Assembly (NCBI GenBank): GCA_002306085.1
Contig: DBRS01000004.1
Span: forward strand, 8,133-72,132
DNA length: 64,000 bases
Direction: 5' to 3'
Origin: Candidatus Moranbacteria bacterium UBA1362
Lineage (GTDB): Bacteria > Patescibacteriota > Minisyncoccia > Moranbacterales > GWC2-37-73
Every line of letters starts with the position of its first letter. The stretch's first letter is position 1. Positions 19,968-34,699 of the stretch are shown here, one piece after another. Below the pieces are notes generated by a model. It ran no database searches. It saw only the letters and a list, made by a program, of their open reading frames with translations, and had not been told where the DNA came from. Position numbers and translations under genes: made by a program.

Positions 19968-21758
19968 ATGAACAACATTAGAAACTTTTGTATAATTGCG
20001 CATATTGATCACGGTAAGTCGACATTGTCTGACCGTATTTTGGAATTCACGCAAACGGTTGAAAAAAGAAGGATGAAAGAGCAGATTTTGGATCAGATGG
20101 ATTTGGAAAGGGAAAGGGGAATTACGATAAAATTACAGCCGGTCAGAATGGTACATTTTTTGAACGGCGAAGAATACGTTTTAAATTTAATTGATACTCC
20201 CGGGCATGTGGATTTTGGATATGAAGTTTCAAGATCTCTTGCCGCCGTCGAAGGAGCCGTCCTTTTAGTTGATGCTACCAAGGGGGTCCAGGCACAAACT
20301 CTTTCAAATTTGTATTTGGCAATCGAGCAAGGCCTTGAGATTATTCCAGTCGTGAACAAAGTAGACCTTCCGAACGCCAATGTGGAAAAAACAAAAAAAG
20401 AAATAATACATATCCTGGGATGCAAAGAGGAAGAAATCTTGGAAGCTTCCGGCAAGACCGGCCAGGGAGTGGAAAAAATACTTGAAGCGATCGTAAAAAA
20501 AATTCCGGCTCCGAGGGGCGAGGCGGGGAAGCCTTTGAGGGCGCTTATTTTTGATTCCAAATACGACACTTATAAAGGTGTCGTGGCGTATGTGCGTATC
20601 GTGGACGGTCATGTGCGAAGAGACGATGAGGTGATGATGATGGCGAATAAAAAAGAAAGTACCGTTGTTGAAGTGGGATATTTCAATCCCAGTTTTCGAC
20701 CCGGCGAATCTTTAAAGTCAGGAGAGATAGGTTATATCGCCACAGGTCTCAAGAGTGTCGAACATTGCCGGGTAGGCGATACGATAACAGTGAAAAATTC
20801 CAAAACTCCCGTCGAAAGACTCCCGGGATATAAAGAGGTGCGTCCCATGGTATACGCGGGATTATATCCCATTGAGGGAGACGCATATAATCTTATGCGG
20901 GATGCTTTGGAAAAACTAAAATTGAATGATGCAGCTTTCGTTTTTGAACCGGAAAGTAACGCGGCTCTCGGCAAAGGCTTCCGCTGCGGATTTCTGGGAT
21001 TGCTGCATCTTGAAATCGTAAAAGAAAGACTGGAAAGAGAGTTTAATTTTTCTCCCACAATAACCACTCCAAGCGTCGTTTATGAAATAAAAATGAGAGG
21101 AAGCAATGAAAAAAGAAAGATATATTCAGCATCGCAGATGCCGGACCCATCGACTTTGGAAGAAATCTCGGAGCCTTTTGTTAAATTAGACATACTCACC
21201 CCCTCGAAGTATCTCGGTGGAATAATGGAACTTATGAGTTCATTAAGATCTGTGTATCTGAACACGGAATATATTGATCTCGAAAGGATATTGCTCACAT
21301 TTGAAGTTCCTCTTACTGATATTATCGTGAATTTTCATGATGATCTTAAAAGTGTCTCGTCGGGATATGCTTCGATGAGCTACGAGCTTATAGGTTACAG
21401 AAATTCGGACTTGGTGAAGCTCGATATACTGCTCGCCGGGGAAGCAGTTGAATCTCTTGGGAGGATCGTGCCAAAAGAGAATGCCTACGCCGAAGGAAAA
21501 AGAATTGTTGAGAAACTCAAAGATGCCATTCCGAGGCAGAGCTTTGCTATTCCTATTCAGGCGGCGATCGGCGGAAAAATTATCGCGCGCGAAACGATCA
21601 AACCTTTCAGAAAAGATGTTATCGCAAAATTATATGGAGGGGATGTCACGAGGAAAAATAAGCTGCTGAACAAACAAAAGAAAGGAAAAAAGAAAATGAA
21701 GAATATCGGCAAGGTGCAGGTTCCGTCAGAAGCGTATCTTGCGGTGCTGAAACGGTAA
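19968..21758 (+). CDS. lepA: Elongation factor 4 (LepA)
   Basis: NFCIIAHIDHGKSTLSDRIL, GTPase G1-G4 motifs and the LepA-specific C-terminal domain. Confidence 0.96.
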   Translation: MNNIRNFCIIAHIDHGKSTLSDRILEFTQTVEKRRMKEQILDQMDLERERGITIKLQPVRMVHFLNGEEYVLNLIDTPGHVDFGYEVSRSLAAVEGAVLLVDATKGVQAQTLSNLYLAIEQGLEIIPVVNKVDLPNANVEKTKKEIIHILGCKEEEILEASGKTGQGVEKILEAIVKKIPAPRGEAGKPLRALIFDSKYDTYKGVVAYVRIVDGHVRRDDEVMMMANKKESTVVEVGYFNPSFRPGESLKSGEIGYIATGLKSVEHCRVGDTITVKNSKTPVERLPGYKEVRPMVYAGLYPIEGDAYNLMRDALEKLKLNDAAFVFEPESNAALGKGFRCGFLGLLHLEIVKERLEREFNFSPTITTPSVVYEIKMRGSNEKRKIYSASQMPDPSTLEEISEPFVKLDILTPSKYLGGIMELMSSLRSVYLNTEYIDLERILLTFEVPLTDIIVNFHDDLKSVSSGYASMSYELIGYRNSDLVKLDILLAGEAVESLGRIVPKENAYAEGKRIVEKLKDAIPRQSFAIPIQAAIGGKIIARETIKPFRKDVIAKLYGGDVTRKNKLLNKQKKGKKKMKNIGKVQVPSEAYLAVLKR

Positions 21759-22035: not shown

Positions 22036-22144
22036 GGAATAGCAATGTTTTCAAAAAAACTTGCGGAAGCTTCAAGTGTACGATTATCTGAAATCCATAG
22101 CATGTGTTGTCGCCAATTGGAGTTGCCCAAGTTCTCTTCAGACG

Positions 22145-22528
22145 ATGAAAACAAAATATTCATTAATGGTGATTCTTTTTGCAATCGGGATAATTCTGGC
22201 AGTCGTGATATCGTCAAGCGCCATAAGACAGGCATATAGAAGCAAAAAGATTGAAAGCGAAGTAAATGCGCTTCAGGAAGAGGCGCGCAGGATTCAAAGC
22301 GAGAATGAAAGAATTTCCCAGCGGATCAGCTACTACAGTACTCCTCATTTTATAGAAAAAGTTTCCAAGGATAAGATAAGTCTTCAAAAACCTGATGAGA
22401 ACGTTATTATTGTAAGCCAAAGGCAAATTGCAGAAAGTGAGGATGCAAGCGAGAAAAAAGAAGAAAATCTGCCAGCTGAACAGCCGAATTTGCCGAATTA
22501 CATAAAATGGTGGAGATTATTTTTTTAG
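22145..22528 (+). CDS. Septum formation initiator family protein (FtsB/DivIC-like)
   Basis: N-terminal TM, coiled coil (VNALQEEARRIQSENERISQRI) and C-terminal PHFIEKVSKDKISLQKPDENVI matching the FtsB/DivIC tail. Internal ATG 22145 preferred. Confidence 0.65.
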   Translation: MKTKYSLMVILFAIGIILAVVISSSAIRQAYRSKKIESEVNALQEEARRIQSENERISQRISYYSTPHFIEKVSKDKISLQKPDENVIIVSQRQIAESEDASEKKEENLPAEQPNLPNYIKWWRLFF

Positions 22529-22537
22529 AAAATAAAT

Positions 22538-23596
22538 ATGTCTGACTCTGACAATGAGAAGAAAATAAAATTGTCCACTCTTGTTTATGCGATGCTGACC
22601 GTATTGTTTGTTATTATTGCGATTATAAGTACGCTTGCCTATGGAACAAATACTGAAATTGGTAAAAGGATATATTTGAAAATATCAAAAATCGTGCCAA
22701 TACCGGCTGCTGTTATAGGCTGGAATGATTTCGTTCTGCTGAGTGACGTGCGCAGCAATCTCGCATCTGTTGAAAAATTCTATAAAGTCAACGATTTTTC
22801 GCAGGAAGGATTAAGGGTGGATTTTTCGACTGAAAGCGGTAAAAAGCGACTGAAAATAAAAGAAAGAGAAATTCTGGAAAAGCTTATTGAAGATAAAGTG
22901 ATAAAAATTTTGGCACAAAAAAGAGGCATATCGATTTCCGAAAAAGATATTGATAAAATGGTTGAGAACAAGCTTGAAGAATTGGGAACGGCAAGCGATT
23001 TAGAGAAAGATCTTGCAAACACGTATGGATGGAACATGGAAGATTTCAAAAAAAACGTGGTGATTCCAACGGCCTATAAAGACGCTTTAATGCAATACGT
23101 GTTGCTCGGCGAACTCGACAATTCTAGCGCAAAAGAAAAAGCGAACGAAGCGCGTAAGGAACTGGAAAGCGGAAAAGATTTTGCGGAGGTTGTTGACAAG
23201 TTTTCAGAGGGAGATTCAAAGAAAAAAGGCGGTGAGTTGGGATGGGTAAAAAAAGAACAGATGATTCAGGAGCTTCAGGAAGCGTTGTTTGACGAAGAAA
23301 GATATGGCAATAACGAGGTGATTGAAAGTTCGATAGGATTTCATATTGTCAGAATTGAGGAAAAAAAGAAGGAAGGAGAGGAAAGCGTACTAAGGTTAAA
23401 GCAGATATTTGTTGCGAAAAAAACATTTGCTGATTGGCTGAAGGATTCGAAAAAATCGATCAGCATATTAATCCCCTTAAAAGATTTCAGGTGGAACTCG
23501 GATAGGGCAGTTGTTGAGTTTAGAAGTGAAAAGATGCAAAAATTTGAAGCAGAAGAAAGATTGAAAGCACAAGGAGATGCGTCGATAATGTTTTAA
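22538..23596 (+). CDS. PpiC-type (parvulin) peptidyl-prolyl isomerase, membrane-anchored (PrsA/SurA-like)
   Basis: N-terminal TM. Parvulin core GKDFAEVVDKFSEGDSKKKGGELGWV...IGFHIVRIEEKK. Confidence 0.8.
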   Translation: MSDSDNEKKIKLSTLVYAMLTVLFVIIAIISTLAYGTNTEIGKRIYLKISKIVPIPAAVIGWNDFVLLSDVRSNLASVEKFYKVNDFSQEGLRVDFSTESGKKRLKIKEREILEKLIEDKVIKILAQKRGISISEKDIDKMVENKLEELGTASDLEKDLANTYGWNMEDFKKNVVIPTAYKDALMQYVLLGELDNSSAKEKANEARKELESGKDFAEVVDKFSEGDSKKKGGELGWVKKEQMIQELQEALFDEERYGNNEVIESSIGFHIVRIEEKKKEGEESVLRLKQIFVAKKTFADWLKDSKKSISILIPLKDFRWNSDRAVVEFRSEKMQKFEAEERLKAQGDASIMF

Positions 23597-23943: not shown

Positions 23944-25326
23944 TTGCGGCGCCTCAACATGATGAATATTATGCAACTAAATAATGAAAAAGATTTTGTC
24001 AAAAATCTGAGCAATAGCGGCAAAGATAATTTGCCGTCCAAAACGGAAGAAACAAAGAAAAAGAAAAAAAATGAAAAAGGGCGGGGGTATTTTTTAAACA
24101 ACACTGTCATCACCGTCATCATTTTAATGTCTATTGCTATTTCTTCACTATTTGGTGCTGTTTTTGGCTTTATGTCTGGGGGAATGGCAAGCGCTTTTTC
24201 TGCGAAGTTTGGAGCCAAATTGAGTAAATACATCCCGATTATGGAATCGGAAAACGTTGATAAAAAAATCAACAAACAACAGATTATTATCGAAGATTCT
24301 GAAATTATAGAAGTGGTTGAAAAATCTTCTCCCGCAGTTGTCAGCATAAACATATCAAAAAACATTCCGAGTTACAGAAATTATTTCAATAATCCTGAGG
24401 ATTTGTTTTACCAATTCTTTGGATATGACGTGCAAACACCAGGCGACGGAGATGAGGAGCAAAAAGTTGGAGGCGGAAGCGGCTTTTTCATAAGTTCCGA
24501 CGGAATGATTTTGACAAACAGGCATGTTGTTGAAGATCAAAATGCCAATTATACTGTGGTCACGAACGACGGCAAGCAATATAAAGCCACAGTTCTGGCG
24601 CGCGATCCTGTAAGGGATGCTGCTGTCATAAAAATAGAAGGCACTGGTTTCCCGACGCTTCCTTTGGGTGATTCCGACTCGCTGAAGATAGGTCAAACAA
24701 CCATAGCCATAGGCAATTCATTGGGAGAATTTGCGAATTCCGTTAGTCGCGGGATCGTTTCAGGACTTAAGAGGAACCTGAGCGCCGGATCTGGTTTCGG
24801 AACTTCGGAACGTCTTACTGATATAATCCAAACGGATGCCGCAATTAATCCTGGAAATTCAGGAGGACCTCTTTTGGATATCGAGGGGAAAGTTATCGGA
24901 GTCAATGTGGCAATAGCCCAGGGCGCGCAAAATGTAGGCTTTGCTTTGCCGATCAATCAGGCAAAAAGGGTGATAGAACAGGCGAAAAGCGGGAAAAAAA
25001 TAGCCATTCCGTTTCTGGGAGTAAGATATGTTATCGTAAATTCGTCCGTGCAAAAAGAAGCGCAGCTGCCTTTTGACTACGGAGCGCTTGTTTTGAGGGG
25101 AAATAAATTAACAGAGCTGGCCGTTGTTCCGGGTTCTCCGGCCGATAAAGCTGGTATTGTTGAAAATGACATAATCCTGGAAGTCGAAGGTGAAAAACTT
25201 GATCAGGACAACCAGCTTGGCGATATTATCTCCAGATATAATGTGGGAGACGAGATAACCTTGAAGGTTTGGCACAAAGGAGAAATCAAGACTGTGAAAG
25301 TGACATTGCAGGAATTAAAGAATTGA
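23944..25326 (+). CDS. htrA: HtrA/DegP-family serine protease with PDZ domain
   Basis: Catalytic triad intact: TNRHVV (His), DAAVIKI (Asp), GNSGGPLLD (Ser). C-terminal PDZ. N-terminal TM. Confidence 0.9.
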   Translation: MRRLNMMNIMQLNNEKDFVKNLSNSGKDNLPSKTEETKKKKKNEKGRGYFLNNTVITVIILMSIAISSLFGAVFGFMSGGMASAFSAKFGAKLSKYIPIMESENVDKKINKQQIIIEDSEIIEVVEKSSPAVVSINISKNIPSYRNYFNNPEDLFYQFFGYDVQTPGDGDEEQKVGGGSGFFISSDGMILTNRHVVEDQNANYTVVTNDGKQYKATVLARDPVRDAAVIKIEGTGFPTLPLGDSDSLKIGQTTIAIGNSLGEFANSVSRGIVSGLKRNLSAGSGFGTSERLTDIIQTDAAINPGNSGGPLLDIEGKVIGVNVAIAQGAQNVGFALPINQAKRVIEQAKSGKKIAIPFLGVRYVIVNSSVQKEAQLPFDYGALVLRGNKLTELAVVPGSPADKAGIVENDIILEVEGEKLDQDNQLGDIISRYNVGDEITLKVWHKGEIKTVKVTLQELKN

Positions 25327-25441: not shown

Positions 25442-28084
25442 ATGGATATTAACCGATTTACAACCAAAAGTCAGGAAGCATTAAGAAAATCCCAAGAACT
25501 TGCACTTTCTTTGAATCAACAGCAGGTGGATGTTTTTCACTTGTTGTTTTCCCTCATCAACCAGGACGGTTCCATCGTTCCTGTTATCATACGAAAGATA
25601 GGGGTAAACATGGAGAAACTAAAAAATGAATCTATCAAAGAGGCGCAAAAGTATCCGAAATCTGTCGTGGGCTCTTTGGGTCAAATTTTCGTGACTCCGT
25701 CGTTGGTACAGGTGCTCGAGCAGGCAGAAAAAGAAATGTCTGCTGTTGGAGACGATTTTGTTTCGACGGAACATCTTCTGCTGGCCATGCTTTCGATAAA
25801 TACTGCGGCCAAAAAAATGTTCGAAATAAATGGCGTTAATTATGATATAGTTCTACAGATACTTTCGGAACTTCGCGGATCGCAACGGGTTGATTCTCCT
25901 GAACCGGAGGGAAAATTTCAGGTAATAGAAAGATATACTATCAATCTTACGAATTTGGCTCGCCAGGACAAGCTGGATCCGGTAATAGGCCGCGATGAGG
26001 AAATAAGAAGAGTTATGCAGGTTCTGAGCAGACGCACAAAAAATAATCCGGTGCTGATCGGAGAAGCCGGAACTGGCAAGACTGCAATTGTGGAAGGGCT
26101 TGCTCAAAGAATTGTTTCGGGAGATGTTCCTGAAACGCTGAAGGATAAAGAACTTATTTCACTGGATCTTGGATCTTTGCTGGCAGGCGCGAAATTTCGC
26201 GGAGAGTTTGAGGACAGGCTGAAAGCGATAATAAAAGAAACGGAACATGCATCTGGAAAATACATATTATTTATAGATGAACTTCATACTTTGGTCGGCG
26301 CCGGTGCCACTGAGGGATCTCTTGACGCTTCCAATATGCTGAAACCGGCTCTTGCAAGGGGAAAATTGAGAACAATTGGGGCCACGACTACCAGGGAGTA
26401 CCAAAAGCACATCGAGAAAGACGCAGCGCTTGAAAGACGTTTTCAGCCGGTTTTAATCAGTGAACCTTCTGTTCAGGACACTATTGCAATTTTACGCGGG
26501 ATTAAAGAGCGCTATGAATTGCATCACGGAGTAAAAATAACCGATGATGCTCTTCAGGCCGCAGTAAAACTTTCTTCAAGATATATCACTGACAGATTCT
26601 TGCCGGATAAGGCGGTTGATCTTATTGACGAGGCTGCGTCGGCGCTTCGGATACAGATAGACTCGATGCCTATAGAGATAGATCAGATGCAGCGTAAAAT
26701 TCATCAGCTTGAAATTGAAAAGAAAGCTATCAGCAAAGACAAATCGAAAAATATGCGCAAAAAAATTGCGCAAATCAATAAACAACTTGCCGAGCTCAAG
26801 GAAAAATCGAACAGTTTGACGTTGCAATGGAAAACCGAAAGGGATCTTATTGCGGCAAGTCGCAAACATAAGAAAGAGATAGATAAACTGAAATCAGAAG
26901 CGGAACAGGCGGACCGCAGGGGAGAGCTTGATAAGGTTGCGGAAATACGCTATGGGAAAATTCCGATACTTGAGAAAAAAATCGCAGAAGAAGAAAAAAA
27001 GCTGACAAAAATCCAGAAAGAAAATTCAATCTTAAAAGAAGAAGTCACTGAAGAAGATATAGCAAAAGTCGTTTCGCGATGGACTGGCATTCCTGTTTCC
27101 AAAATGCTGGAAAGCGAGCAAGACAAGCTGGCGCACATGGAAAAGGAGCTAAATAAATATGTCATCGGACAAGAAGAAGCCATCACTTCGGTTTCGAACG
27201 CAATACGTCGTTCGCGAGCGGGAATTTCGGAAGAGAATCGTCCTATAGGATCGTTTATTTTTCTCGGGCCCACGGGCGTGGGAAAAACGGAACTGGCCAA
27301 AACTTTGGCGAATTTTCTCTTTAACGATCCGAAGTCGCTTATTCGCCTGGACATGAGCGAATATATGGAAGGACATTCGACCGCAAAAATCATCGGCTCT
27401 CCGCCTGGTTATGTCGGATATGAAGAGGGAGGCCAGCTTACGGAAATGGTTAGAAGAAGGCCGTATTGCGTAATCCTTTTTGATGAAATAGAAAAGGCTC
27501 ATCCGCAGGTGTTCAATATTCTTTTGCAAGTCTTGGATGACGGAAGACTTACTGATGCCAAGGGACGTGTAGTAAATTTTAAGAATACTGTTATAATAAT
27601 GACATCCAACGTGGGGTCCGATATTATAAACAAAATGCGGACATTCGGATTTCAGGGAGAGCGCAGGGAAGACACGGTAAGTGAAAGCGAGATGCGAAGC
27701 AGAGTTTTGTCGAGTCTGCGCGAGCAATTTAAGCCGGAATTTCTGAATAGAATTGATGATACCATAATCTTTCACCCCCTTACCAAAAACATATTGAGAA
27801 AGATTGTTGATATTCAAATTAATTCAGTTCAAAAACGCCTTTCGGAAAGAAACATCAAGCTTCGGATTTCGAATGATGTGAAATCCTATCTGGCGGAAAG
27901 AGGCTACGATCCAACCTATGGAGCAAGGCCGCTCAAAAGGATGGTGCAAAATGAAATTTCAGACAAGCTTGCCCTGGAAATACTTGAGAAAAAAATCACG
28001 GATGGAGATATCATGAATGTTCGTCTGGATCACGGAAGAATTGCATTTGAAAAAGCGCCCAAAATAATTCGAGGTCATATTTAA
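25442..28084 (+). CDS. clpB: ATP-dependent chaperone ClpB
   Basis: Clp N-domain, two AAA+ modules ([15 protein letters not shown]; [12 protein letters not shown]) and a long middle coiled-coil domain, so ClpB rather than ClpA/C. Confidence 0.96.
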
Positions 28085-28100
28085 TTTTTCATTAAGATAA

Positions 28101-28877
28101 ATGTTTTTTCACATCCCGGTATTTTTTTATACCTTGGTATTTATTTTGATTATTGAGCTTTCAGCAACCGATTTGGTAGGTGGGTCATTTTCATTTTTTT
28201 TCTCAAGAGGAATTTCGGTTAAAATATTCATAGTTTCTTTGCTTTTTTTCTATTTTTTTAATGTCGCGCGTAAAATTTCACGAAAGGCGTCCATGGCAAT
28301 CATACCGATTTTGTTTGTTATCGCGGTAATGGGACTTTCATATTTCGTGCAGCCCGCAAAACAGCAGCAGCTCCTCATAGCTCTTAGCGCGTTCGCATAT
28401 TATTTTATCCATCTTGCGCTTTACAGATTACATATCTACGAAAAAGACAAAACGGCTCATAGCATCATTGCGTCCGGCGGCATGGCGACCATTTTTTTGA
28501 TATACTGCACCATGTTTGCCATATACCTTAATTACAACATTCCACTGTATATTCTGATGATTATCATGATGCTGATTACCACTCTGGTCAGCTATCAGTA
28601 CTTTTCCTTAATCAGGGAGGAAAAGAAGCGAGTATTTAATTTCAGCCTTGTTCTCGGTCTTATAATGGCTGAGATATCTTGGGCTCTTAACTTTTGGCCC
28701 TTCGGATACTTGACAACTGGCGTGATTGCTTTTATTTTTTATTATATGTTTTGGGATTTGGTTCAATGCCATTTTGCGGGAGAATTGTCAAAAAGGCGCG
28801 TGATTGCCAACATGATTTTCTTGGGTTTCATTGTCGGTTTGATATTGTCAACATCCCGTTGGTTGCCCGTGGTTTAA
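28101..28877 (+). CDS. Hypothetical polytopic membrane protein
   Basis: About 7 hydrophobic helices. No recognisable motif. Confidence 0.45.
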   Translation: MFFHIPVFFYTLVFILIIELSATDLVGGSFSFFFSRGISVKIFIVSLLFFYFFNVARKISRKASMAIIPILFVIAVMGLSYFVQPAKQQQLLIALSAFAYYFIHLALYRLHIYEKDKTAHSIIASGGMATIFLIYCTMFAIYLNYNIPLYILMIIMMLITTLVSYQYFSLIREEKKRVFNFSLVLGLIMAEISWALNFWPFGYLTTGVIAFIFYYMFWDLVQCHFAGELSKRRVIANMIFLGFIVGLILSTSRWLPVV

Positions 28878-28905: not shown

Positions 28906-30075
28906 ATGAATGAGAACGCAAAAAATATAACTAGGCGTATTGCCAGAGGAATTTTTATTTTTTTTCTGATTTTTATAATTGGCGGACTTGGCGGTGTCTA
29001 TTTTGATCAAAAAGTGCTGCCCATGATCAGAACAAGCAAGCATCTTTCGCGCATAAATTTTTTGAAGCGAAGCGCGGAAAATGTCACAGTAATAAACAAG
29101 ACAGAGCAGGTTATCATCCAGGAGGACGATTCCGTGAACGAAATAGCCTCACAAGCTTCCAATACGGTCGTCAACATAATTTCAATTTCTTCGCAGAATT
29201 CTCCGGCAAGCGAGCAGGGAGTGCGTGAACAGAGCGGAACTGGCATGATAGCCACAAGCGACGGTTTGATTACCACTTACAGGACCGCGATAATTGAAGA
29301 CGGCGCTATATATAAGGTATTTTTATTCAATGGAAACAGCTATGATGCAAAACTTCTGGGAGTTGATGAGTTTTCCAATCTGGCATTTTTAAAGATTGAC
29401 ACGCCCAATTTGATGGCCATACCTTTTGGCGATTCTTCCGACGCGCGTCCCGGAAAAAAGCTTGTGGCAATTGGAAATTCATTTGGTGAATATCAGAACA
29501 GATATGCTTCAGGTCTTCTTAGCAGCATAGACAAAACTTTCAATTTGGCGGGAAAATCGGTTTCCTCTACTGAAAAATTGGAAAGTGTTTTTGAGGATGA
29601 TTTCAGCGACAGAAGAGAATATATCGGAGGTCCTGTCATAGGGCATAGCGGAGATCTGGTGGGAATAGTAGGAATGACCGTAATTGATGGCAAAGAGAAA
29701 TATTTTTTGATTCCGTCAAACGTTGTTAAAAATACTGTTGACTTTGTGCTGAAAAATGGTTTTGAAGCAAGACCCTTTTTCGGAGCTTATTATAAAACCA
29801 TTACGAAAGAGTTTTCCATGACGCACGGGCTTAATCGCGATCGCGGAGCGCTTATCTATTCTCCGTCAGGCAAACAGTCCCTAGCTTTCATTTCCGGATC
29901 GCCAGCCGAGATTGCCAGACTTAAAATAAACGACATTGTCACCATGGTTAATAATCAGGGGGTGAACCTCGACAATCCGCTTTCAAACCTCATTAATCAA
30001 TACAAGAAAGGAGACAAAATCGAACTCACGGTGGACAGAAACGGCGAAGAGATAAAAATTCCGGTGCAGCTGTAA
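28906..30075 (+). CDS. HtrA-like trypsin-fold plus PDZ protein with all three catalytic residues substituted (pseudoprotease)
   Basis: Aligns to the upstream HtrA: TTYRTA instead of TNRHVV (His->Arg), NLAFLKI instead of DAAVIKI (Asp->Asn), YIGGP instead of GNSGGP (Ser->Ile). PDZ retained. N-terminal TM. Confidence 0.7.
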   Translation: MNENAKNITRRIARGIFIFFLIFIIGGLGGVYFDQKVLPMIRTSKHLSRINFLKRSAENVTVINKTEQVIIQEDDSVNEIASQASNTVVNIISISSQNSPASEQGVREQSGTGMIATSDGLITTYRTAIIEDGAIYKVFLFNGNSYDAKLLGVDEFSNLAFLKIDTPNLMAIPFGDSSDARPGKKLVAIGNSFGEYQNRYASGLLSSIDKTFNLAGKSVSSTEKLESVFEDDFSDRREYIGGPVIGHSGDLVGIVGMTVIDGKEKYFLIPSNVVKNTVDFVLKNGFEARPFFGAYYKTITKEFSMTHGLNRDRGALIYSPSGKQSLAFISGSPAEIARLKINDIVTMVNNQGVNLDNPLSNLINQYKKGDKIELTVDRNGEEIKIPVQL

Positions 30076-30146
30076 ACTTGCATGAAAACCGAGATTTTCA
30101 AACTCGCTGAACAGGCGAGTTTTTTTCATTTCTTTTGTAATAAGTA

Positions 30147-30189: not shown

Positions 30190-30756
30190 GTGACAAGAAC
30201 TTTTGTCATAATTTTGTTTGCATGTGCTTTTAGTTTTTTGGCGTAGTCATGCGATGACGACGACAATTGTGAATTCTGCGGCCTTGATGATTGCAGCGGG
30301 GATTGCGAAAGATCGGCAGAAATATCGTATGACTCCGAATCCAACGTGTTGACAGTTTTCTTCCCGACGGATAGCGAGGGAAACTTTGTGAATTTTGTGA
30401 AATATGGCGAGCCGGCAACGCTCGTAATTGATGAGTGTGATGAGTTTCCCCAGCCGAACCTTGAAAACGATTGCGAGGGAGGATGGCCGGAAGCTGATCC
30501 GAATGTTCCGGGTCTTCCGGGACATTTCCTCGATGAGAACACTGCCATATTTTATCTGGAAAAGGACGGCGGAATCGGGCTACCTGCGCTCATCAGCGAT
30601 GGAGTCATCTATAACGTCAATATTGACATGGTTGTTTCGACAGGAGGCCCGATCATAAAAAGCAAGGAGAATAGTGACGGCCTGCTCTACTGGGAAACTG
30701 CCCAAATTGATGGAAATATCAATCATGAATTTTTTTGTGACAAGGAAGATCACTGA
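30190..30756 (+). pseudogene. Lipoprotein gene interrupted by an in-frame TAG (signal peptide, stop, Cys/Asp-rich mature domain)
   Basis: GTG 30190 with good RBS encodes VTRTFVIILFACAFSFLA, then TAG at 30244-30246. The same frame continues SCDDDDNCEFCGLDDCSGDCE... into ORF 30346-30756. Confidence 0.4.
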
Positions 30757-30793
30757 AATTGTGACGGTGTGCAAAACACACCGTCTTTTAATA

Positions 30794-30822
30794 TTGACAT
30801 TTATTGAAATTTGGAGTATAAT
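30794..30822 (+). promoter_or_regulatory. Consensus sigma70 promoter TTGACA-N17-TATAAT
   Basis: ttgaca at 30794-30799, 17-nt spacer, tataat at 30817-30822. Drives the lipoprotein gene at 30884. Confidence 0.6.
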
Positions 30823-30883
30823 TAAGGGTTGGATCATTTACAAAAAAATAAATGGCTTTACCAAGCCAAAAGGGAGGGATAAC

Positions 30884-31822
30884 ATGAAAAAGATTGTCGA
30901 AGTTGCAGGCTTTTTGCTCTTACTGGTGTTGGTTTCATGCGGCGGCGGAAGCAGTCATGATGATGGTGGCGGAAATACGAAAGTTTTTCCCAGCGTAAAC
31001 ATAACGCAAGACGAGCTCGACAATGCCGTGGCAAAGCTGGAAGTTTTTTCCGACCACGGCGTGTTCTATCCAGCCATGGTGGGCGAATATATCGTCCATC
31101 TATCCGACGGTGAGCAGGAATGCTATGCCGACAAAAACGAGATCGCGGAGATTTACTGGAATGACGAGTTTGGTGGATTTCACGCGGTCGATCCTGAAAA
31201 GGGATTGAAGCTCGAATGGGACCCGGAAAATCCGGTGCTTGAAATTCCGGGAGAGATCGCATCATCGGGAGCCACCATCAGTTTTGTGCTGAATGACGGC
31301 AGGGAGCTTTCCATCATAACCGATGAGAAGTGGCTCGTTTTCGAATGTGAAGAAGGCATGTTCGCCAAAGTTACGGAAAACGGGCTCATATGCATCGGCT
31401 ATGACGATGGGATTGCTCCACCCCAGACATTACCGGAACTCACCAAGATCGAGATAAACACAGTGACCGGAACGATCCAAATCACTCCAGGTTTCCAGAA
31501 CGGAAAAATTTTCTACCTGGTTGATTCAAATCCGGTGGAAACTGTATGCGATTCTGACGGAAACATTACATCCGAATATGAAGTCGCATGGAACGATGTG
31601 TATTCCTGGTATCCCACTCGCGGGATTCTTGCTGATCTTGCGTTGCCGCAAACGTTGATTTTGAATGCGGCAAATGCAGCAGGATGCGGGGAGGGCATGC
31701 CTTACCTCGTAAGGCCTGATAGGTCATATGTCTCGTTCAACACTGAAAAATGCATTGTGTTTGTTGACGGAGTGGATGTAACCGCAACTGCCATAGGCAG
31801 CGACGGACTCATTCACTATTAA
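30884..31822 (+). CDS. Hypothetical lipoprotein (secreted, Gly/Asp-rich N-terminus)
   Basis: MKKIVEVAGFLLLLVLVSCGGGSS: signal peptide with lipobox LVSC. RBS agggaggga. Upstream extension of the ORF track is judged spurious. Confidence 0.6.
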   Translation: MKKIVEVAGFLLLLVLVSCGGGSSHDDGGGNTKVFPSVNITQDELDNAVAKLEVFSDHGVFYPAMVGEYIVHLSDGEQECYADKNEIAEIYWNDEFGGFHAVDPEKGLKLEWDPENPVLEIPGEIASSGATISFVLNDGRELSIITDEKWLVFECEEGMFAKVTENGLICIGYDDGIAPPQTLPELTKIEINTVTGTIQITPGFQNGKIFYLVDSNPVETVCDSDGNITSEYEVAWNDVYSWYPTRGILADLALPQTLILNAANAAGCGEGMPYLVRPDRSYVSFNTEKCIVFVDGVDVTATAIGSDGLIHY

Positions 31823-31883
31823 AATCGAAGGCGGGTTGTGCAAATTTGCGCAATCCGCCTTTTAAAATATTTAAGGCAGGGTA

Positions 31884-31912
31884 TTGACAAAAATTGATTT
31901 TTGTACTAATAT
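31884..31912 (+). promoter_or_regulatory. Sigma70 promoter TTGACA-N17-TAATAT
   Basis: ttgaca at 31884-31889, tgtac-taatat at 31907-31912. 30 nt upstream of the ATG at 31943. Confidence 0.5.
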
Positions 31913-31942
31913 AACCTGTTAAGTATATAAATCGGTAACAAT

Positions 31943-32641
31943 ATGCAATTTAATCAGATTTTACCTTTAATAAGGCTCAAATTGGCCGGGATCATAATGT
32001 TCGGTCTGCTTGTTGCCGCTTTTTCTTTTCTTGCGCTTGTTGTGAAAGAAAAGAATTTCAAGGTTAATACGGCATATCTTATTGTCCAAAATCAGGGATT
32101 GAATGAAGATTATTACACTCTTTCCAAGTCTGCCGAATATGTCGGGAAAGTTCTTGGCGAAGGAATTTATAGCGAGCTGTTCATCGACGAGGTTTTGAAA
32201 ACAGGCAAAGTAAATCCTGAATTTTTGCCTTTCGACAAAAAAGAAAAAATGAAAGAGTGGGGCAAGAATGTTGAAGTTAGACGCAATCCGGATCTCGGAA
32301 TCATGAGCATTGAAGTTTTTGATAACGGACAGGGCCAGGCTCTTGCCGTCTCAAATGCCATAAGCGAGGTATTGATTTCAAAAAACAGTCAGTTTTTGGG
32401 AGAAGGGAAAAACATAAGCATCAAAATTATTTCAGGGCCGATTCTTGAAAAGAATCCGTCCATCGAAAACATTTCCGCAACAGTAATGGGAGGCTTTGTG
32501 TTGGGGATAATGTTCAGCGCTCTTTGGATAATATCCAAGGAAGAAAGGAGAATGAGAAGAATTTTTTCCGTGAATACTGCAAAACGCGCAGAAAACGATG
32601 GCGCCGAGGAATATATGGAAAGCTTGAATTATATCAAATAA
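31943..32641 (+). CDS. Polysaccharide chain-length determinant (Wzz/PCP-like) protein, putative
   Basis: Topology TM, soluble domain of about 150 aa, TM (GGFVLGIMFSALWIIS), short basic tail. Resembles Gram-positive CpsC/Wzz-type co-polymerases. Confidence 0.45.
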   Translation: MQFNQILPLIRLKLAGIIMFGLLVAAFSFLALVVKEKNFKVNTAYLIVQNQGLNEDYYTLSKSAEYVGKVLGEGIYSELFIDEVLKTGKVNPEFLPFDKKEKMKEWGKNVEVRRNPDLGIMSIEVFDNGQGQALAVSNAISEVLISKNSQFLGEGKNISIKIISGPILEKNPSIENISATVMGGFVLGIMFSALWIISKEERRMRRIFSVNTAKRAENDGAEEYMESLNYIK

Positions 32642-32810
32642 AATGCATATAATTGCAAGAAGTATTGTCAACAAAATAATCTTTCTTGAAATTAAATTAT
32701 TTTGGGTGTATCGGGAATTTTTGTCAGGCAAGAATTTCCGCATAGGCTCGAAATAGGTTCGGGTCAGTAGCTTGAAAAAATACGCGTAAGCGAGAGAGGG
32801 AGGAGATATC

Positions 32811-33602
32811 ATGAAGAGGATCATATCGATTTTGGCAACAACGGTCTTTCTGGCGGCGCTGTTTTCTGGAAGCGCCATGGCAACGGGTGAGGAATTGGTC
32901 ATTTCCGAGGAACAGGCTCAGCCCGCGAAGGTTTGGGGAAGTTTTCCCGAAGCCTCAATTTGGGCGGGAGCCTGGATAAATCCGAAAATGGACACTCAGG
33001 GGTTGTGGGCTACTGCAAAGTATCTGGAGTGGTTCACAAAGTATGAAAAACCCGAAAACTTCGGCATCGGTGCTAAAGTTCGCGGAGATTATGGATGGAA
33101 ATCTATGGATGGTTCTGATCCTAATTGGAGCTACTATGCTCCCGGTCCGTCTGTGGGCTATTACCGCGGACTGACTCTTCGCGATTCAATTGAAGCGGAT
33201 TTTTCATTGCTATATCGCTTCGACAAAAATCGTGATGACGGATTCATGCCGGATCTTCATGCGGAGTATAATCGGATTTTGGGCTACAAAAATCGGCTGA
33301 CACTCCAAGTGGATGCGGTTTACTTTGAAGACGATAGCTGGGTTGGTCCTGGTGCATATTTGCATCACAGACTGAATAAAGACTGGAAAGTAATTCCTGG
33401 TGTCGGAGCGAGTTTGAGCTGGATTGATGGAGACTATATCTCCGGATTCCAGCCGTCGCTCAAGTTCAAGTATCGCAACAAGTGGACAATCGGCGCAACA
33501 GCCAACCTGTTCACAGGAAACGGTTCGTTTTTTGGGATTGTCGCGGCGTATGAATTTACGCCCGACATAAACACATGGTACGAAACAAAGAAAGCTCGTT
33601 GA
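32811..33602 (+). CDS. Secreted hypothetical protein (signal peptide), aromatic-rich, possibly beta-rich
   Basis: MKRIISILATTVFLAALFSGSAMA signal peptide. Mature part rich in W/Y/G with alternating hydrophobic pattern. Confidence 0.45.
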   Translation: MKRIISILATTVFLAALFSGSAMATGEELVISEEQAQPAKVWGSFPEASIWAGAWINPKMDTQGLWATAKYLEWFTKYEKPENFGIGAKVRGDYGWKSMDGSDPNWSYYAPGPSVGYYRGLTLRDSIEADFSLLYRFDKNRDDGFMPDLHAEYNRILGYKNRLTLQVDAVYFEDDSWVGPGAYLHHRLNKDWKVIPGVGASLSWIDGDYISGFQPSLKFKYRNKWTIGATANLFTGNGSFFGIVAAYEFTPDINTWYETKKAR

Positions 33603-33622
33603 GAGCGCAAAAGGAGGTAGAA

Positions 33623-34699
33623 ATGAAAGCACTACGTTTATTGGTCCTGTGTTTCGTCGCAATCGCGCTTTCAACAAGCGCGATGGCATACACCGAACGG
33701 CTCACGTCGCCCGCAAGGGTTGACGCTGATCTGGTGGACGTGAATGGAAAGAAGTATATTCGCTTCACCTTCACACACACAAGCGCGGCTGATACGTGGC
33801 ACGATACACTTGTTTCTTTCTGTCCGGATCCGCTACGGGAAGGTTGTGATAACAACATTCCATTCAGCATAACAAAGATGGAATGCACAACCACCATGAT
33901 CTGGGACATTCCGCTCGAGGTTATCGCCGGAGGTCAGAGTGCTGTGAACTGGGCCTGTGATGAGGACTGGTTCAACACAAAATGGCTATTCCTTCCGGAT
34001 TGCAGAAACCTTACGGTAGGTCGGAATCTCATTTACTATAAGAGTCTTCCTGATCCGATGATTCCGAAGTCCGGCGGCATGCATCTTTTGTATGTCGGTC
34101 CGGGAGCGCCGTTTGTTCCCGCGTCTGATGATCCGAGATGGTTCAGGTGCGGAGGATATTGCGCTCCTTCTGCACCACCTATTGTGATTGCGCCTGTTGT
34201 TCCGGCGCCGGTACCTCCCGTGGTGAAGCCTGCAGAGCCTTGCAAAAAGCCGGCTTCGCCGAAGTCGATCTGCGACGAACCCTGCATACAGCAGATCAGT
34301 GAAGACACTTCGGCAACACGTGAATCAGTTGGTGTCATTGATAAGACTGAACCGGCTGATGAGCAAAAGTTGCAGCAGAAGGCCCGCAAGACTCTTGCAA
34401 TTTCCAAACGTGTGGAAACAAACACCAGTACTATTATTGACCAAAACAACCAGACTAATGACAAACTGGGGACGCCCAAGGGGGAAGGTCAAACGCTTTT
34501 CTCCGAGCTGGATGACGTTAAAGGGGGTGTAACCATTATACAGAATCAAGTGGATACAAAATTCAACGAGATAAAGGCTCAGGTATCCACAAGTTTCTGG
34601 GACAAATGGTGGTTGCTTATACTAGCCATAGCAGCTGCCATTATCATATTAGCCACGTGGGGGCTTACATGCTACTCTGGTGTACGCATAAAGGATTAG
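33623..34699 (+). CDS. Surface protein: signal peptide, Cys-containing globular domain, Pro-rich linker, C-terminal TM anchor
   Basis: MKALRLLVLCFVAIALSTSAMA; PIVIAPVVPAPVPPVVKPAEP linker; C-terminal WWLLILAIAAAIIILATWGL. RBS aaggagg before ATG 33623. Confidence 0.55.
   Translation: MKALRLLVLCFVAIALSTSAMAYTERLTSPARVDADLVDVNGKKYIRFTFTHTSAADTWHDTLVSFCPDPLREGCDNNIPFSITKMECTTTMIWDIPLEVIAGGQSAVNWACDEDWFNTKWLFLPDCRNLTVGRNLIYYKSLPDPMIPKSGGMHLLYVGPGAPFVPASDDPRWFRCGGYCAPSAPPIVIAPVVPAPVPPVVKPAEPCKKPASPKSICDEPCIQQISEDTSATRESVGVIDKTEPADEQKLQQKARKTLAISKRVETNTSTIIDQNNQTNDKLGTPKGEGQTLFSELDDVKGGVTIIQNQVDTKFNEIKAQVSTSFWDKWWLLILAIAAAIIILATWGLTCYSGVRIKD

What the first reader, a model, noticed from the sequence alone, without database searches (positions are those of the whole stretch)
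28906..30075. Catalytically dead HtrA paralog (pseudoprotease) downstream of clpB
This protein aligns along the protease and PDZ domains with the active HtrA at 23944. All three catalytic residues are replaced: His->Arg in TTYRTA, Asp->Asn in NLAFLKI and Ser->Ile in YIGGP. The N-terminal TM and the PDZ domain are retained. Complete triad loss with fold retention suggests a non-enzymatic role as a substrate-binding regulator or adaptor. It may partner the active HtrA; both lie near clpB. The gene is preceded by a polytopic membrane protein.
Basis: seen in the sequence. Interest (0 to 1): 0.6.

Follow-up and report, generated by a model that had tools for sequence, protein, structure and literature searches.

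The report
Dead HtrA paired with DUF5656
This gene encodes a membrane-anchored HtrA-type protease look-alike that has lost its catalytic residues but is strongly conserved in Moranbacteria (candidate phyla radiation), always directly after a 9-helix membrane protein of unknown function (DUF5656), so it most likely works with that protein without cutting anything.

Summary
ORF 28906-30075 (+, 389 aa) has a Trypsin_2 and a PDZ domain, a predicted HtrA fold, and is 30% identical to the intact HtrA at 23944-25326. The catalytic positions are Thr127/Asn158/Ile240.

The loss is old and fixed. No His or Ser occupies the catalytic His and Ser positions in 120 ortholog clusters, 54 locus genes and 65 further metagenome genes. 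No column in the family holds a conserved His. All 29 co-located active paralogs keep H-D-S. dN/dS is 0.04-0.09, the same as the active HtrA.

The invariant neighbour is the upstream DUF5656 membrane protein, not ClpB or the active HtrA. It is present in every locus with readable upstream sequence down to 26% identity except one ambiguous short contig (L051), and 75/75 in the reverse test.

DUF5656 has a confident predicted fold with no PDB match. It also has a fixed, predicted-external C-terminus, W-L-P-V-V-COOH, a plausible ligand for the conserved PDZ.

I read this as a two-gene envelope module in which the pseudoprotease is a non-catalytic binding subunit. It is an independent third case beside MamO and PflC, and I found no paper describing it. 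The mechanism is inferred, not shown.

The parts
28906..30075 (+). Dead HtrA homolog (pseudoprotease), 389 aa: N-terminal TM anchor, protease-fold domain without a triad, one PDZ domain
   Evidence: ORF. Pfam Trypsin_2 + PDZ_2. 30% identity to the active paralog. AF2 plus Foldseek give an HtrA fold. dN/dS 0.04-0.09.
28948..29004 (+). Signal-anchor TM helix (aa 15-33) with the conserved F23, G26-G27-x-G29-G30 motif
   Evidence: Single hydropathy peak. The N flank is more positive than the C flank in 103/103 family members, giving N-in/C-out. F23, G26, G27 and G29 are invariant.
29062..29124 (+). Conserved juxtamembrane linker (aa 53-73, ...AENVTVINKTEQV...). It is specific to the dead family and modelled with low confidence.
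   Evidence: E58, N59, T61 and Q68 are invariant. pLDDT is below 50 for 53-73. T61, T66 and E67 are conserved in 51-53 of 54 dead genes but not in the active paralogs. That this is a candidate partner-binding segment is inference.
29236..29667 (+). Trypsin_2 (chymotrypsin-fold) domain, aa 111-254
   Evidence: Pfam; Foldseek hits to DegP/DegQ.
29284..29286 (+). Thr127 at the catalytic His position
   Evidence: This column is S/G/T/N/K/E/A/Q/D/R across orthologs and never His.
29377..29379 (+). Asn158 at the catalytic Asp position
   Evidence: The column is N 71, D 49, S 1 in 121 sequences.
29623..29625 (+). Ile240 at the catalytic Ser position, in E-Y-I-G-G-P (active: G-N-S-G-G-P)
   Evidence: The column is V 51, I 49, L 21. 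G241, G242 and P243 are invariant.
29770..30072 (+). PDZ domain (aa ~289-389) with a conserved carboxylate-binding loop R-P-x-[LF]-G-x-Y-Y and helix-B motif N-P-L-S-N-L
   Evidence: Pfam PDZ_2; conservation data; pLDDT 83-93.
28101..28877 (+). DUF5656 membrane protein (258 aa), the invariant upstream partner gene. Predicted 9 TM, N-in/C-out.
   Evidence: Pfam PF18900, 35.2 bits against a cut-off of 23.3. AF2 pLDDT 86, pTM 0.84. No PDB fold or sequence match. K+R count is 12.6 inside against 2.5 outside. Synteny.
28689..28718 (+). DUF5656 near-invariant loop N-F-W-P-F-G-Y-L-T-T, predicted extracytoplasmic
   Evidence: F198-T205 are invariant in 48 sequences. Translation; topology.
28860..28874 (+). 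DUF5656 fixed C-terminal tail W-L-P-V-V-COOH, predicted extracytoplasmic; candidate PDZ ligand
   Evidence: W at -4 in 119/120 clusters, P at -2 in 109/120, and the last residue is V/L/I/M in 118/120. Translation. Ligand status is inference only.
30100..30130 (+). Terminator-like hairpin plus T-run 25 nt after the stop codon; likely end of the transcription unit
   Evidence: (9-bp stem, T-run) and sequence. No such site lies between clpB, DUF5656 and the dead HtrA, where the gaps are 16 and 28 nt.
25442..28084 (+). ClpB disaggregase: frequent but not obligatory upstream neighbour
   Evidence: Pfam. Directly upstream of the pair in 27 of 40 genome loci and at least 47 of 75 metagenome loci.
23944..25326 (+). 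Active HtrA paralog (H194/D225/S306 intact): frequent but not obligatory neighbour
   Evidence: Pfam Trypsin_2 at 6e-37, plus Trypsin and PDZ. 29/29 co-located paralogs are H-D-S.
22061..23596 (+). DivIC-like (22061-22528) and PrsA/SurA-like PpiC PPIase (22538-23596): the usual head of the gene cluster
   Evidence: Pfam; synteny.

Best explanation
The gene encodes a functional, non-catalytic HtrA-fold protein (a pseudoprotease). It is anchored in the membrane by an N-terminal helix, with its protease-like and PDZ domains outside the cell membrane. It forms an obligate two-gene module with the DUF5656 protein encoded immediately upstream, a predicted 9-TM protein.

Proposed mechanism:
- The two proteins form a membrane complex.
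- The pseudoprotease supplies a peptide-binding module, made of the remodelled active-site cleft and the PDZ domain, at the outer face of the membrane.
- It is held to DUF5656 through its conserved Gly-rich TM helix and juxtamembrane linker.
- The PDZ domain may also dock on the fixed, externally exposed W-L-P-V-V-COOH tail of DUF5656.
- The complex acts in handling of secreted or envelope proteins. The module sits in a DivIC-PrsA-like PPIase-(HtrA)-(ClpB) cluster and is probably co-transcribed with clpB here.

Shown here: loss of the triad, retention of the fold, purifying selection, and invariant gene pairing. Predicted: the topology of both proteins. Inferred: physical complex formation, the PDZ-tail contact and the cellular role.
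For: Triad loss is fixed:
- Across the 120 ortholog clusters plus the window protein (121 sequences), the His column is never H and the Ser column is always V/I/L.
- 54/54 genes in fetched loci and 65/65 further metagenome genes lack both.
- No conserved His exists anywhere in the family.

The fold is retained.

The protein is under selection:
- dN/dS is 0.037-0.092 in pairs with usable dS, equal to the active HtrA (0.036-0.146) in the same genomes.
- The mean majority-residue fraction per alignment column is 0.68 for the dead protein against 0.63 for the active paralog.

Pairing with DUF5656:
- DUF5656 lies directly upstream on the same strand, mostly less than 50 nt away, in 44/44 loci with upstream sequence.
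- The same holds for 4 of 5 family members at 26-34% identity; the fifth, L051, is uninformative.
- In reverse, starting from DUF5656, a dead-type HtrA follows in 2/2 and 75/75 loci.
- ClpB and active-HtrA linkage are both variable.

Compatible topology:
- Dead HtrA is N-in/C-out in 103/103.
- DUF5656 is 9 TM with its invariant NFWPFGYLTT loop and its C-terminus outside.

Candidate interfaces are conserved:
- The DUF5656 tail is fixed in length and sequence.
- The PDZ carboxylate-binding loop and helix B are among the best-conserved parts of the dead protein.
- The TM helix and the low-pLDDT linker at 53-73 are far more conserved than the N-terminus of the active paralog, 0.55 against 0.30.

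Operon structure: 16- and 28-nt gaps, with a terminator-like hairpin only after the dead gene.

Precedent: MamO combines a dead trypsin-like domain with a polytopic TauE domain that is needed for its non-catalytic function (PMC4794232).
Against: - There is no direct evidence of a physical interaction.
- A mirror-tree test was uninformative. The raw distance correlation between dead HtrA and DUF5656 is 0.91, but the partial correlation controlling for ClpB is only 0.16-0.19, no better than active HtrA against DUF5656 at 0.24.
- DUF5656 has no recognisable function or fold relative, so the output of the module is unknown.
- Both topologies rest on the positive-inside rule alone.
- One very divergent DUF5656 (L050) ends in ...PWEIIRG, not in an aliphatic residue.
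- The PDZ/tail co-variation that is visible is confined to one divergent clade and is confounded by phylogeny.
Confidence: 0.6

Rival explanations
1. The dead paralog is a regulator or adaptor of the active HtrA. It would co-assemble with or activate the catalytic paralog, as MamO activates MamE. DUF5656 would then be only an operon neighbour or a membrane anchor.
For: - Both genes are in one cluster in the window and in 24 of 40 species-representative loci.
- HtrAs work as trimers and higher oligomers (established knowledge).
- MamO promotes MamE-dependent proteolysis non-catalytically (PMC4794232).
Against: - Linkage to the active HtrA is lost in about 40% of loci, while linkage to DUF5656 is never lost.
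- The paralogs are only 30% identical.
- The mirror-tree partial correlation between dead and active HtrA is 0.07.
- In MamO, activation needed the membrane (TauE) domain, and no MamE-MamO contact was detected.
Confidence: 0.2
2. It is a free-standing, membrane-tethered holdase chaperone for unfolded secreted proteins, like the chaperone activity kept by DegP S210A. It would be functionally independent of DUF5656.
For: - Cleft loops and the PDZ domain are conserved.
- The neighbours are a PrsA-like PPIase, HtrA and ClpB, or SecA/SecDF in L001/L002.
Against: - It does not explain the strict gene pairing in more than 120 loci.
- It does not explain the strong conservation of the TM helix and juxtamembrane linker.
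Confidence: 0.1
3. It is a purely structural envelope scaffold built from an HtrA fold, as PflC is in the Campylobacter flagellar motor.
For: PflC shows that a triad-less HtrA homolog can be co-opted as a lattice protein, with its PDZ domain regulating oligomerisation (PMC12222027).
Against: - No flagellar or other large-machine genes are linked to it.
- It is TM-anchored and paired with a small polytopic protein.
- The ligand-binding elements of the PDZ domain are conserved.
Confidence: 0.05
4. It is still a hydrolase that uses a non-canonical catalytic apparatus, or alternatively it is a decaying pseudogene.
For: - A few members have Thr at the Ser position (3 of 65).
- Several acidic and basic residues are conserved: D119, D154, K163, K185, E223, K224, E226.
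Against: - The nucleophile position is aliphatic in nearly all members, the His position varies freely, and there is no conserved His or Cys anywhere.
- Most of the conserved polar residues are shared with active HtrAs as structural positions.
- Decay is excluded by intact ORFs in more than 40 species and dN/dS below 0.1.
Confidence: 0.04

Closest known systems
HtrA/DegP/DegS family serine proteases (MEROPS S1C), including the paralog at 23944-25326 and single-PDZ, TM-anchored HtrAs of Gram-positive bacteria
   Same: - Same domain order: N-terminal TM anchor, chymotrypsin-fold domain, one PDZ.
- Same predicted fold (Foldseek E about 1e-23 to DegP/DegQ/AlgW).
- Shared structural motifs: S-D-G-x-I-x-T, D-x-x-x-[DN]-L-A-x-[LI]-K-I, G-G-P, and the PDZ x-L-G-x loop.
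- Same extracytoplasmic topology.
   Different: - His and Ser of the triad are absent in every member. G-N-S-G-G-P has become E-Y-[VIL]-G-G-P.
- It scores 134 bits against NCBIfam cut-offs of 416-470.
- It has a dead-family-specific conserved linker and Gly-rich TM helix.
- It is obligately paired with DUF5656.
MamO, the magnetosome pseudoprotease (Hershey et al. 2016, PMC4794232)
   Same: - A bacterial trypsin/HtrA-type domain with a degenerate active site and non-catalytic function.
- It is associated with a polytopic membrane module that is required for function.
- It is encoded beside an active HtrA-type protease, MamE.
   Different: - MamO's membrane module is a fused C-terminal TauE domain. 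Here the module is a separate upstream gene with no TauE similarity.
- MamO binds metal through a di-His motif, whereas this family has no conserved His.
- The paper does not mention a PDZ domain for MamO.
- There is no magnetosome context.
- The NCBIfam MamO score is 48 bits against a cut-off of 800, so the origin is independent.
PflC, the medial-disk protein of the Campylobacter jejuni flagellar motor (Drobnic et al. 2025, PMC12222027)
   Same: An HtrA homolog with protease-like and PDZ domains that lacks the catalytic triad and has been co-opted for a non-proteolytic envelope role.
   Different: PflC is a soluble periplasmic lattice protein of a flagellar motor in a diderm. This protein is TM-anchored, from a candidate phyla radiation (CPR) bacterium, has no linked motility genes, and is paired with a small polytopic membrane protein.
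DegS-type PDZ sensing of C-terminal tails (E. coli envelope stress; own knowledge)
   Same: A TM-anchored, single-PDZ HtrA-fold protein whose PDZ recognises hydrophobic C-terminal peptides. The DUF5656 tail...W-L-P-V-V-COOH, is of that general type.
   Different: DegS is catalytically active and its output is cleavage of RseA. Here no cleavage is possible, and the proposed ligand is the constant tail of the partner protein. That proposal is untested.

Membership tests
HtrA/DegP (S1C) serine proteases | Chymotrypsin-fold (Trypsin_2) protease domain | tested here: met
   Pfam PF13365 at E 7.6e-13, full-length match 1-144/144. Foldseek top hits are DegP and DegQ.
HtrA/DegP (S1C) serine proteases | At least one C-terminal PDZ domain | tested here: met
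   Pfam PDZ_2 at E 8e-10. PDZ region pLDDT is 83-93.
HtrA/DegP (S1C) serine proteases | His-Asp-Ser catalytic triad | tested here: not met
   T127/N158/I240 in the window protein. His and Ser are absent in all 120 + 54 + 65 relatives examined.
HtrA/DegP (S1C) serine proteases | G-N-S-G-G-P nucleophile/oxyanion-hole motif | tested here: not met
   The motif is E-Y-[VIL]-G-G-P; only G-G-P is retained.
HtrA/DegP (S1C) serine proteases | Score above the curated family cut-offs (NCBIfam degP_htrA_DO, SerProtHtrA) | tested here: not met
   133.6 bits against a cut-off of 416.2, and 134.5 against 470.
MamO-type magnetosome pseudoprotease | Degenerate active site in a trypsin-like domain | tested here: met
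   This is a general resemblance only.
MamO-type magnetosome pseudoprotease | [quoted passage not shown] | tested here: not met
   The protein ends after its PDZ domain. The neighbouring DUF5656 has no TauE hit, even at E up to 10, in any of 48 members.
MamO-type magnetosome pseudoprotease | Surface di-histidine metal-binding motif | tested here: not met
   No alignment column holds His in 30% or more of 54 members.
MamO-type magnetosome pseudoprotease | NCBIfam MamO equivalog score | tested here: not met
   48.4 bits against a cut-off of 800.
PflC-type flagellar scaffold | Specific sequence relationship to PflC; association with the flagellar motor | not tested
   No PflC sequence or model was available in the tools. 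No flagellar genes were seen among the annotated neighbours.
DUF5656 (PF18900), for the partner gene 28101-28877 | Score above the Pfam gathering threshold | tested here: met
   35.2 bits against a cut-off of 23.3. All 48 aligned homologs hit PF18900.
Proposed DUF5656 / pseudo-HtrA module (defined here) | DUF5656 gene immediately upstream of a triad-less HtrA gene on the same strand | tested here: met
   Window gap is 28 nt. Found in 44/44 genome loci, 4 of 5 distant members (the fifth, L051, uninformative), 2/2 and 75/75.
Proposed DUF5656 / pseudo-HtrA module (defined here) | Physical complex between the two proteins; PDZ binding of the DUF5656 C-terminal tail | not testable with these tools
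   No multimer prediction was available. The mirror-tree test was uninformative.

The most novel reading that the evidence does not exclude
DUF5656 plus the pseudo-HtrA may be a previously unrecognised envelope machine confined to Moranbacteria and close Parcubacteria. DUF5656 is a 9-TM protein with a fold that has no solved relative. In this reading its activity (transport, signalling or an enzymatic step at the outer membrane face) is gated by a dead protease. The PDZ domain would hold the partner's own C-terminal tail and release it when unfolded secreted proteins compete for it. That would be a DegS-like stress sensor whose output is allosteric rather than proteolytic.
Probability: 0.2. 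Interest if true: 0.7.

Novelty: new variant of a known kind. Interest (0 to 1): 0.5.

Why it matters
Bacterial HtrA-derived pseudoproteases are known from only two studied cases, MamO and PflC. Each turned out to do something unexpected: metal binding with protease activation, and a structural lattice. This is a third, independent and much more widespread lineage. It covers dozens of 50%-identity clusters and at least 42 species-level genomes, in an uncultivated, genome-reduced group where every retained gene is likely to matter.

The strict pairing gives DUF5656, a family that no paper in the searched library mentions, its first functional association. It also yields a simple testable hypothesis: complex formation with PDZ-tail docking.

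In practical terms, databases currently name these proteins 'serine protease Do', 'S1C family serine protease' or '2-alkenal reductase'. This overstates the proteolytic capacity of these genomes.

Tried and rejected
- **Alternative triad.** I looked for any conserved His, Ser or Cys that could rebuild a catalytic site. There is no conserved His, and the conserved Ser/Asp residues are structural positions shared with active HtrAs.
- **Decaying pseudogene.** Rejected by dN/dS of 0.04-0.09.
- **ClpB or active HtrA as the conserved partner.** Rejected as the primary link because synteny is variable.
- **Rosetta-stone fusions.** The long HtrA representatives P0203, P0207 and P0225 have about 230-aa N-terminal extensions, but these are H-D-S-intact and show no DUF5656 domain.
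- **Function of DUF5656.**
  - Foldseek against the PDB found nothing (best E 0.22, TM 0.21).
  - A profile search against PDB sequences gave zero hits.
  - Pfam at E up to 10 gave only noise: no TauE, rhomboid, S2P or CPBP.
  - NCBIfam gave nothing.
- **Anti-phage defence.** No PADLOC hits for either protein.
- **Mirror-tree co-evolution.** Raw r is 0.91, but the partial correlations controlling for ClpB are 0.16-0.19 and do not discriminate.
- **PDZ/tail co-variation.** Variants co-occur only within one divergent clade, so they are confounded by phylogeny.
- **RNA elements.** There are no tRNAs and no Rfam matches in the window.
- **Literature.** No paper mentions DUF5656. None links Patescibacteria or Moranbacteria to an inactive HtrA.
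Full report

ORF 28906..30075 (+ strand, ATG start, 389 aa) is present as described.
- Pfam finds a full-length Trypsin_2 domain at residues 111-254 (E 7.6e-13, 49.9 bits against a 27.6-bit cut-off) and a PDZ_2 domain at 330-389 (E 8e-10).
- BLASTP against the HtrA encoded at 23944..25326 gives 30% identity over 280 residues (E 4e-38), covering protease and PDZ.
- An AlphaFold2 model built on 37 orthologs has mean pLDDT 75, with both domain cores at 83-93. Its best PDB matches by Foldseek are DegP, DegQ, MucD, AlgW, Deg1 and M. tuberculosis HtrA, at E about 1e-23.

The catalytic residues of the active paralog (H194, D225, S306) align to T127, N158 and I240.
- BLASTP, three independent MAFFT alignments and HMMER alignments to solved HtrAs all agree.
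- I checked the codons directly.
In T-T-Y-R-T-A the Arg matches the Arg/Lys that precedes the catalytic His in active HtrAs (N-R-H-V). The His position itself is Thr.
- The single N-terminal hydrophobic segment (about 15-33) and the upstream polytopic membrane protein are also confirmed.

**2. Is the loss of the triad fixed, and is the protein still functional?**

The window protein has 703 database relatives at E <= 1e-5. The best 120 clusters are 57-100% identical, and those with names are Candidatus Moranbacteria/Moraniibacteriota, Parcubacteria or Patescibacteria.

Counts below are for the 121 aligned sequences, that is the 120 clusters plus the window protein:

| Catalytic position | Residues observed |
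|---|---|
| His | S63, G25, T13, N7, K4, E4, A2, Q, D, R; never His |
| Asp | N71, D49, S1 |
| Ser | V51, I49, L21 |

- The same pattern holds for all 54 family genes in the loci I fetched and for 65 more from a metagenome scan. The 29 active HtrA paralogs encoded in the same loci are all H-D-S.
- No column of the family alignment holds His in 30% or more of members.
- In an exhaustive search of 1.84 billion representatives, about 67 of the best 150 clusters at 50% identity lack the triad, down to 26-30% identity to the query. In a rough NJ tree, 57 of them form one pure clade separate from the H-D-S sequences.

The gene is not decaying.
- In ortholog pairs with unsaturated dS (0.29-1.25), dN/dS is 0.037-0.082.
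- In the same genomes the values are 0.038-0.072 for the active HtrA, 0.013-0.094 for DUF5656 and 0.013-0.031 for ClpB; the L017/L018 DUF5656 pair, where dS is only 0.006, is left out.
- Column conservation (mean majority-residue fraction) of the dead protein is 0.68, at least that of its active paralog at 0.63.

**3. What is it linked to?**

In the window the order on the + strand is:
- DivIC-like (22061-22528)
- PrsA/SurA-like PpiC PPIase (22538-23596)
- active HtrA (23944-25326)
- ClpB (25442-28084)
- DUF5656 (28101-28877)
- dead HtrA (28906-30075)

The last two intergenic gaps are 16 and 28 nt. A terminator-like hairpin (30100-30122 plus a T-run) appears only after the dead HtrA gene.

I fetched 42 loci from species-representative genomes plus several metagenome contigs and mapped all six genes.
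- A DUF5656 gene lies directly upstream of the dead HtrA in 44 of 44 loci that have upstream sequence, down to 37% identity.
- ClpB is directly upstream of the pair in only 27 of 40 genome loci, and an active HtrA is present in only 24.
- Five loci go straight from ppiC to DUF5656.
- In L001, L002 and L014 the pair sits next to an EamA gene, which in L001/L002 lies downstream of SecA-SecDF.
- Four of five very distant members (26-34% identity) also have DUF5656 upstream. The fifth is on a short contig (L051) and is uninformative.

The reverse test also holds. Starting from DUF5656, a dead-type HtrA follows in 2/2 look-ups and in 75/75 metagenome loci with at least 600 nt of downstream sequence.

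The conserved unit is therefore DUF5656 plus the dead HtrA. The proteostasis cluster is its usual, but dispensable, neighbourhood.

**4. The partner.**

DUF5656 (258 aa) passes the Pfam threshold (35.2 against 23.3 bits). The searched literature does not mention it.
- Its AF2 model is confident (pLDDT 86, pTM 0.84; ten helices).
- Foldseek finds no PDB relative (best E 0.22, TM 0.21).
- A profile search of PDB sequences gives no hits, and Pfam at E up to 10 gives only noise.
- The positive-inside rule gives 9 TM segments, N-in/C-out. Across 48 homologs there are 12.6 K+R per protein in the proposed cytoplasmic loops against 2.5 outside.

Two of the most conserved features fall on the outer face.
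- The first is the loop N-F-W-P-F-G-Y-L-T-T, with F198-T205 invariant.
- The second is the C-terminus, fixed in length and sequence. W is at -4 in 119/120 clusters, P at -2 in 109/120, and the last residue is V/L/I/M in 118/120.
- Conserved acidic residues E191 and D219 lie in the helices flanking that loop.

**5. Anatomy of the dead HtrA relevant to mechanism.**

- The N flank of its TM helix is more positive than the C flank in 103/103 members. This places the protease-like and PDZ domains outside, as in the active paralog.
- The TM helix carries invariant F23 and a G26-G27-x-G29-G30 motif.
- It is followed by a dead-family-specific conserved segment (E58, N59, T61, T66, E67, Q68) that AF2 cannot place, with pLDDT below 50 at 53-73.
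- Conservation of the N-terminal region is 0.55, against 0.30 in the active paralog.
- A conserved segment that is disordered in isolation and sits next to the membrane is what a partner-binding segment would look like. This is inference.
- The former active-site region (190-245) is the best-conserved stretch. The nucleophile position is constrained to an aliphatic residue, while the His position varies freely.
- The PDZ carboxylate-binding loop (R-P-x-[LF]-G-x-Y-Y) and the start of helix B (N-P-L-S-N-L) are nearly invariant.

**6. Most likely mechanism.**

*Shown:*
- a triad-less but selected HtrA fold;
- obligate gene pairing with DUF5656.

*Predicted:* compatible topologies, from the positive-inside rule.

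*Inferred:*
- The two proteins form a membrane complex.
- The pseudoprotease is its extracytoplasmic peptide-binding subunit.
- The PDZ may dock on the W-L-P-V-V-COOH tail of DUF5656. HtrA-family PDZ domains typically bind hydrophobic C-termini (own knowledge, for example DegS with OMP tails).
- The complex acts on secreted or envelope proteins, given the PPIase/HtrA/ClpB or Sec neighbourhood.

I put 0.6 on the core claim that this is a functional non-catalytic partner of DUF5656, and about 0.3 on the tail-docking detail.

It has the MamO-MamE precedent but weaker genomic support. I could not model a complex, and a mirror-tree test was uninformative.

**7. Comparison with what is known.**

Two bacterial HtrA-type pseudoproteases have been studied.
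- MamO has a degenerate site, binds metal through a di-His motif and promotes MamE proteolysis. That activity needs its fused polytopic TauE domain (PMC4794232).
- PflC is an HtrA homolog without a triad that forms the medial-disk lattice of the Campylobacter flagellar motor (PMC12222027).

The present family works 'like' these only in being a repurposed HtrA fold, and it is a member of neither.
- It has no conserved His and no TauE similarity.
- Its MamO model score is 48 bits against a cut-off of 800.
- It has no flagellar context.
- The association of a dead protease domain with a polytopic membrane module echoes MamO, but the two are built from unrelated parts.

Within the S1C family it meets the fold and domain criteria and fails the catalytic ones, and it falls far below the curated family cut-offs.

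**8. Verdict.**

The finding is real and correctly read as a pseudoprotease.

It is a new variant of a known kind, an independent and widespread lineage of HtrA pseudoproteases with a new, uncharacterised membrane partner.

Interest is moderate (0.5). It is not a surprise in principle, but it is a clean, testable handle on two uncharacterised protein families that are conserved across Moranbacteria and close Parcubacteria relatives within the candidate phyla radiation.

Noticed in passing
[not shown]
   Followed up: partly
L001 1757-3427 and L002 1678-3426: SecD in these Moranbacteria contigs carries PpiC-type Rotamase domain hits between SecD_1st and the P1 head. This looks like a SecD-PPIase fusion, just upstream of the DUF5656/dead-HtrA pair.
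   Followed up: no
representatives P0157, P0168, P0173, P0178, P0180, P0236, P0246, P0247, P0250, P0253: Ten further HtrA representatives with incomplete triads (for example N-D-F, S-E-S, E-D-S, Q-N-S) fall among the H-D-S-intact sequences, outside the main dead clade, in a rough NJ tree. This suggests additional independent losses of catalysis, although P0180 is a 267-aa fragment that merely lacks the His region. Their genomic contexts were not examined.
   Followed up: no
database names of P0043, P0053, P0093: Members of this dead family are named '2-alkenal reductase', 'serine protease Do' or 'S1C family serine protease' in NCBI and JGI records. The first is a plain misannotation and the others imply an activity the proteins cannot have.
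   Followed up: no
L005, L007, L013, L029, L032, L033, L043: Several MAG records titled 'uncultured Bdellovibrionales bacterium' carry this Moranbacteria-type cluster, with ClpB 65-82% identical to the window's. The taxonomic label of those assemblies looks wrong.
   Followed up: no
window 23944-24250 (5' part of the active HtrA ORF): The TTG start at 23944 gives an N-terminal region of about 100 aa that is barely conserved (column conservation 0.0-0.3). tblastn matches in other genomes mostly begin at residue 26-74, though L031, L032 and L046 match from residue 5-6. The true start may be further downstream.
   Followed up: no
window 1-64000: 47 of 55 ORFs of at least 100 aa are on the + strand. 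GC skew is positive up to about 52 kb, near zero at 52-60 kb and negative at 62-64 kb. There are no tRNA genes and no Rfam matches in 64 kb.
   Followed up: no
window 30674-34699: Four consecutive ORFs downstream of the module (382, 232, 263 and 374 aa) have no Pfam match. They are followed by a Wzy_C O-antigen-ligase-like gene and a GT4 glycosyltransferase. The same layout, a block of unknown proteins and then Wzy_C, follows the pair in L003 and L053. The 382-aa ORF contains a lipobox-like L-V-S-C after a hydrophobic stretch.
   Followed up: no
L010 3658-9164: In this genome about 5.5 kb separates clpB from DUF5656, where most relatives have them adjacent. The content of the insertion was not examined.
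   Followed up: no
window 15651-18215: An 854-aa ORF whose only Pfam match is DUF4012 lies upstream of MurJ (18279-19922) and LepA (19968-21758).
   Followed up: no
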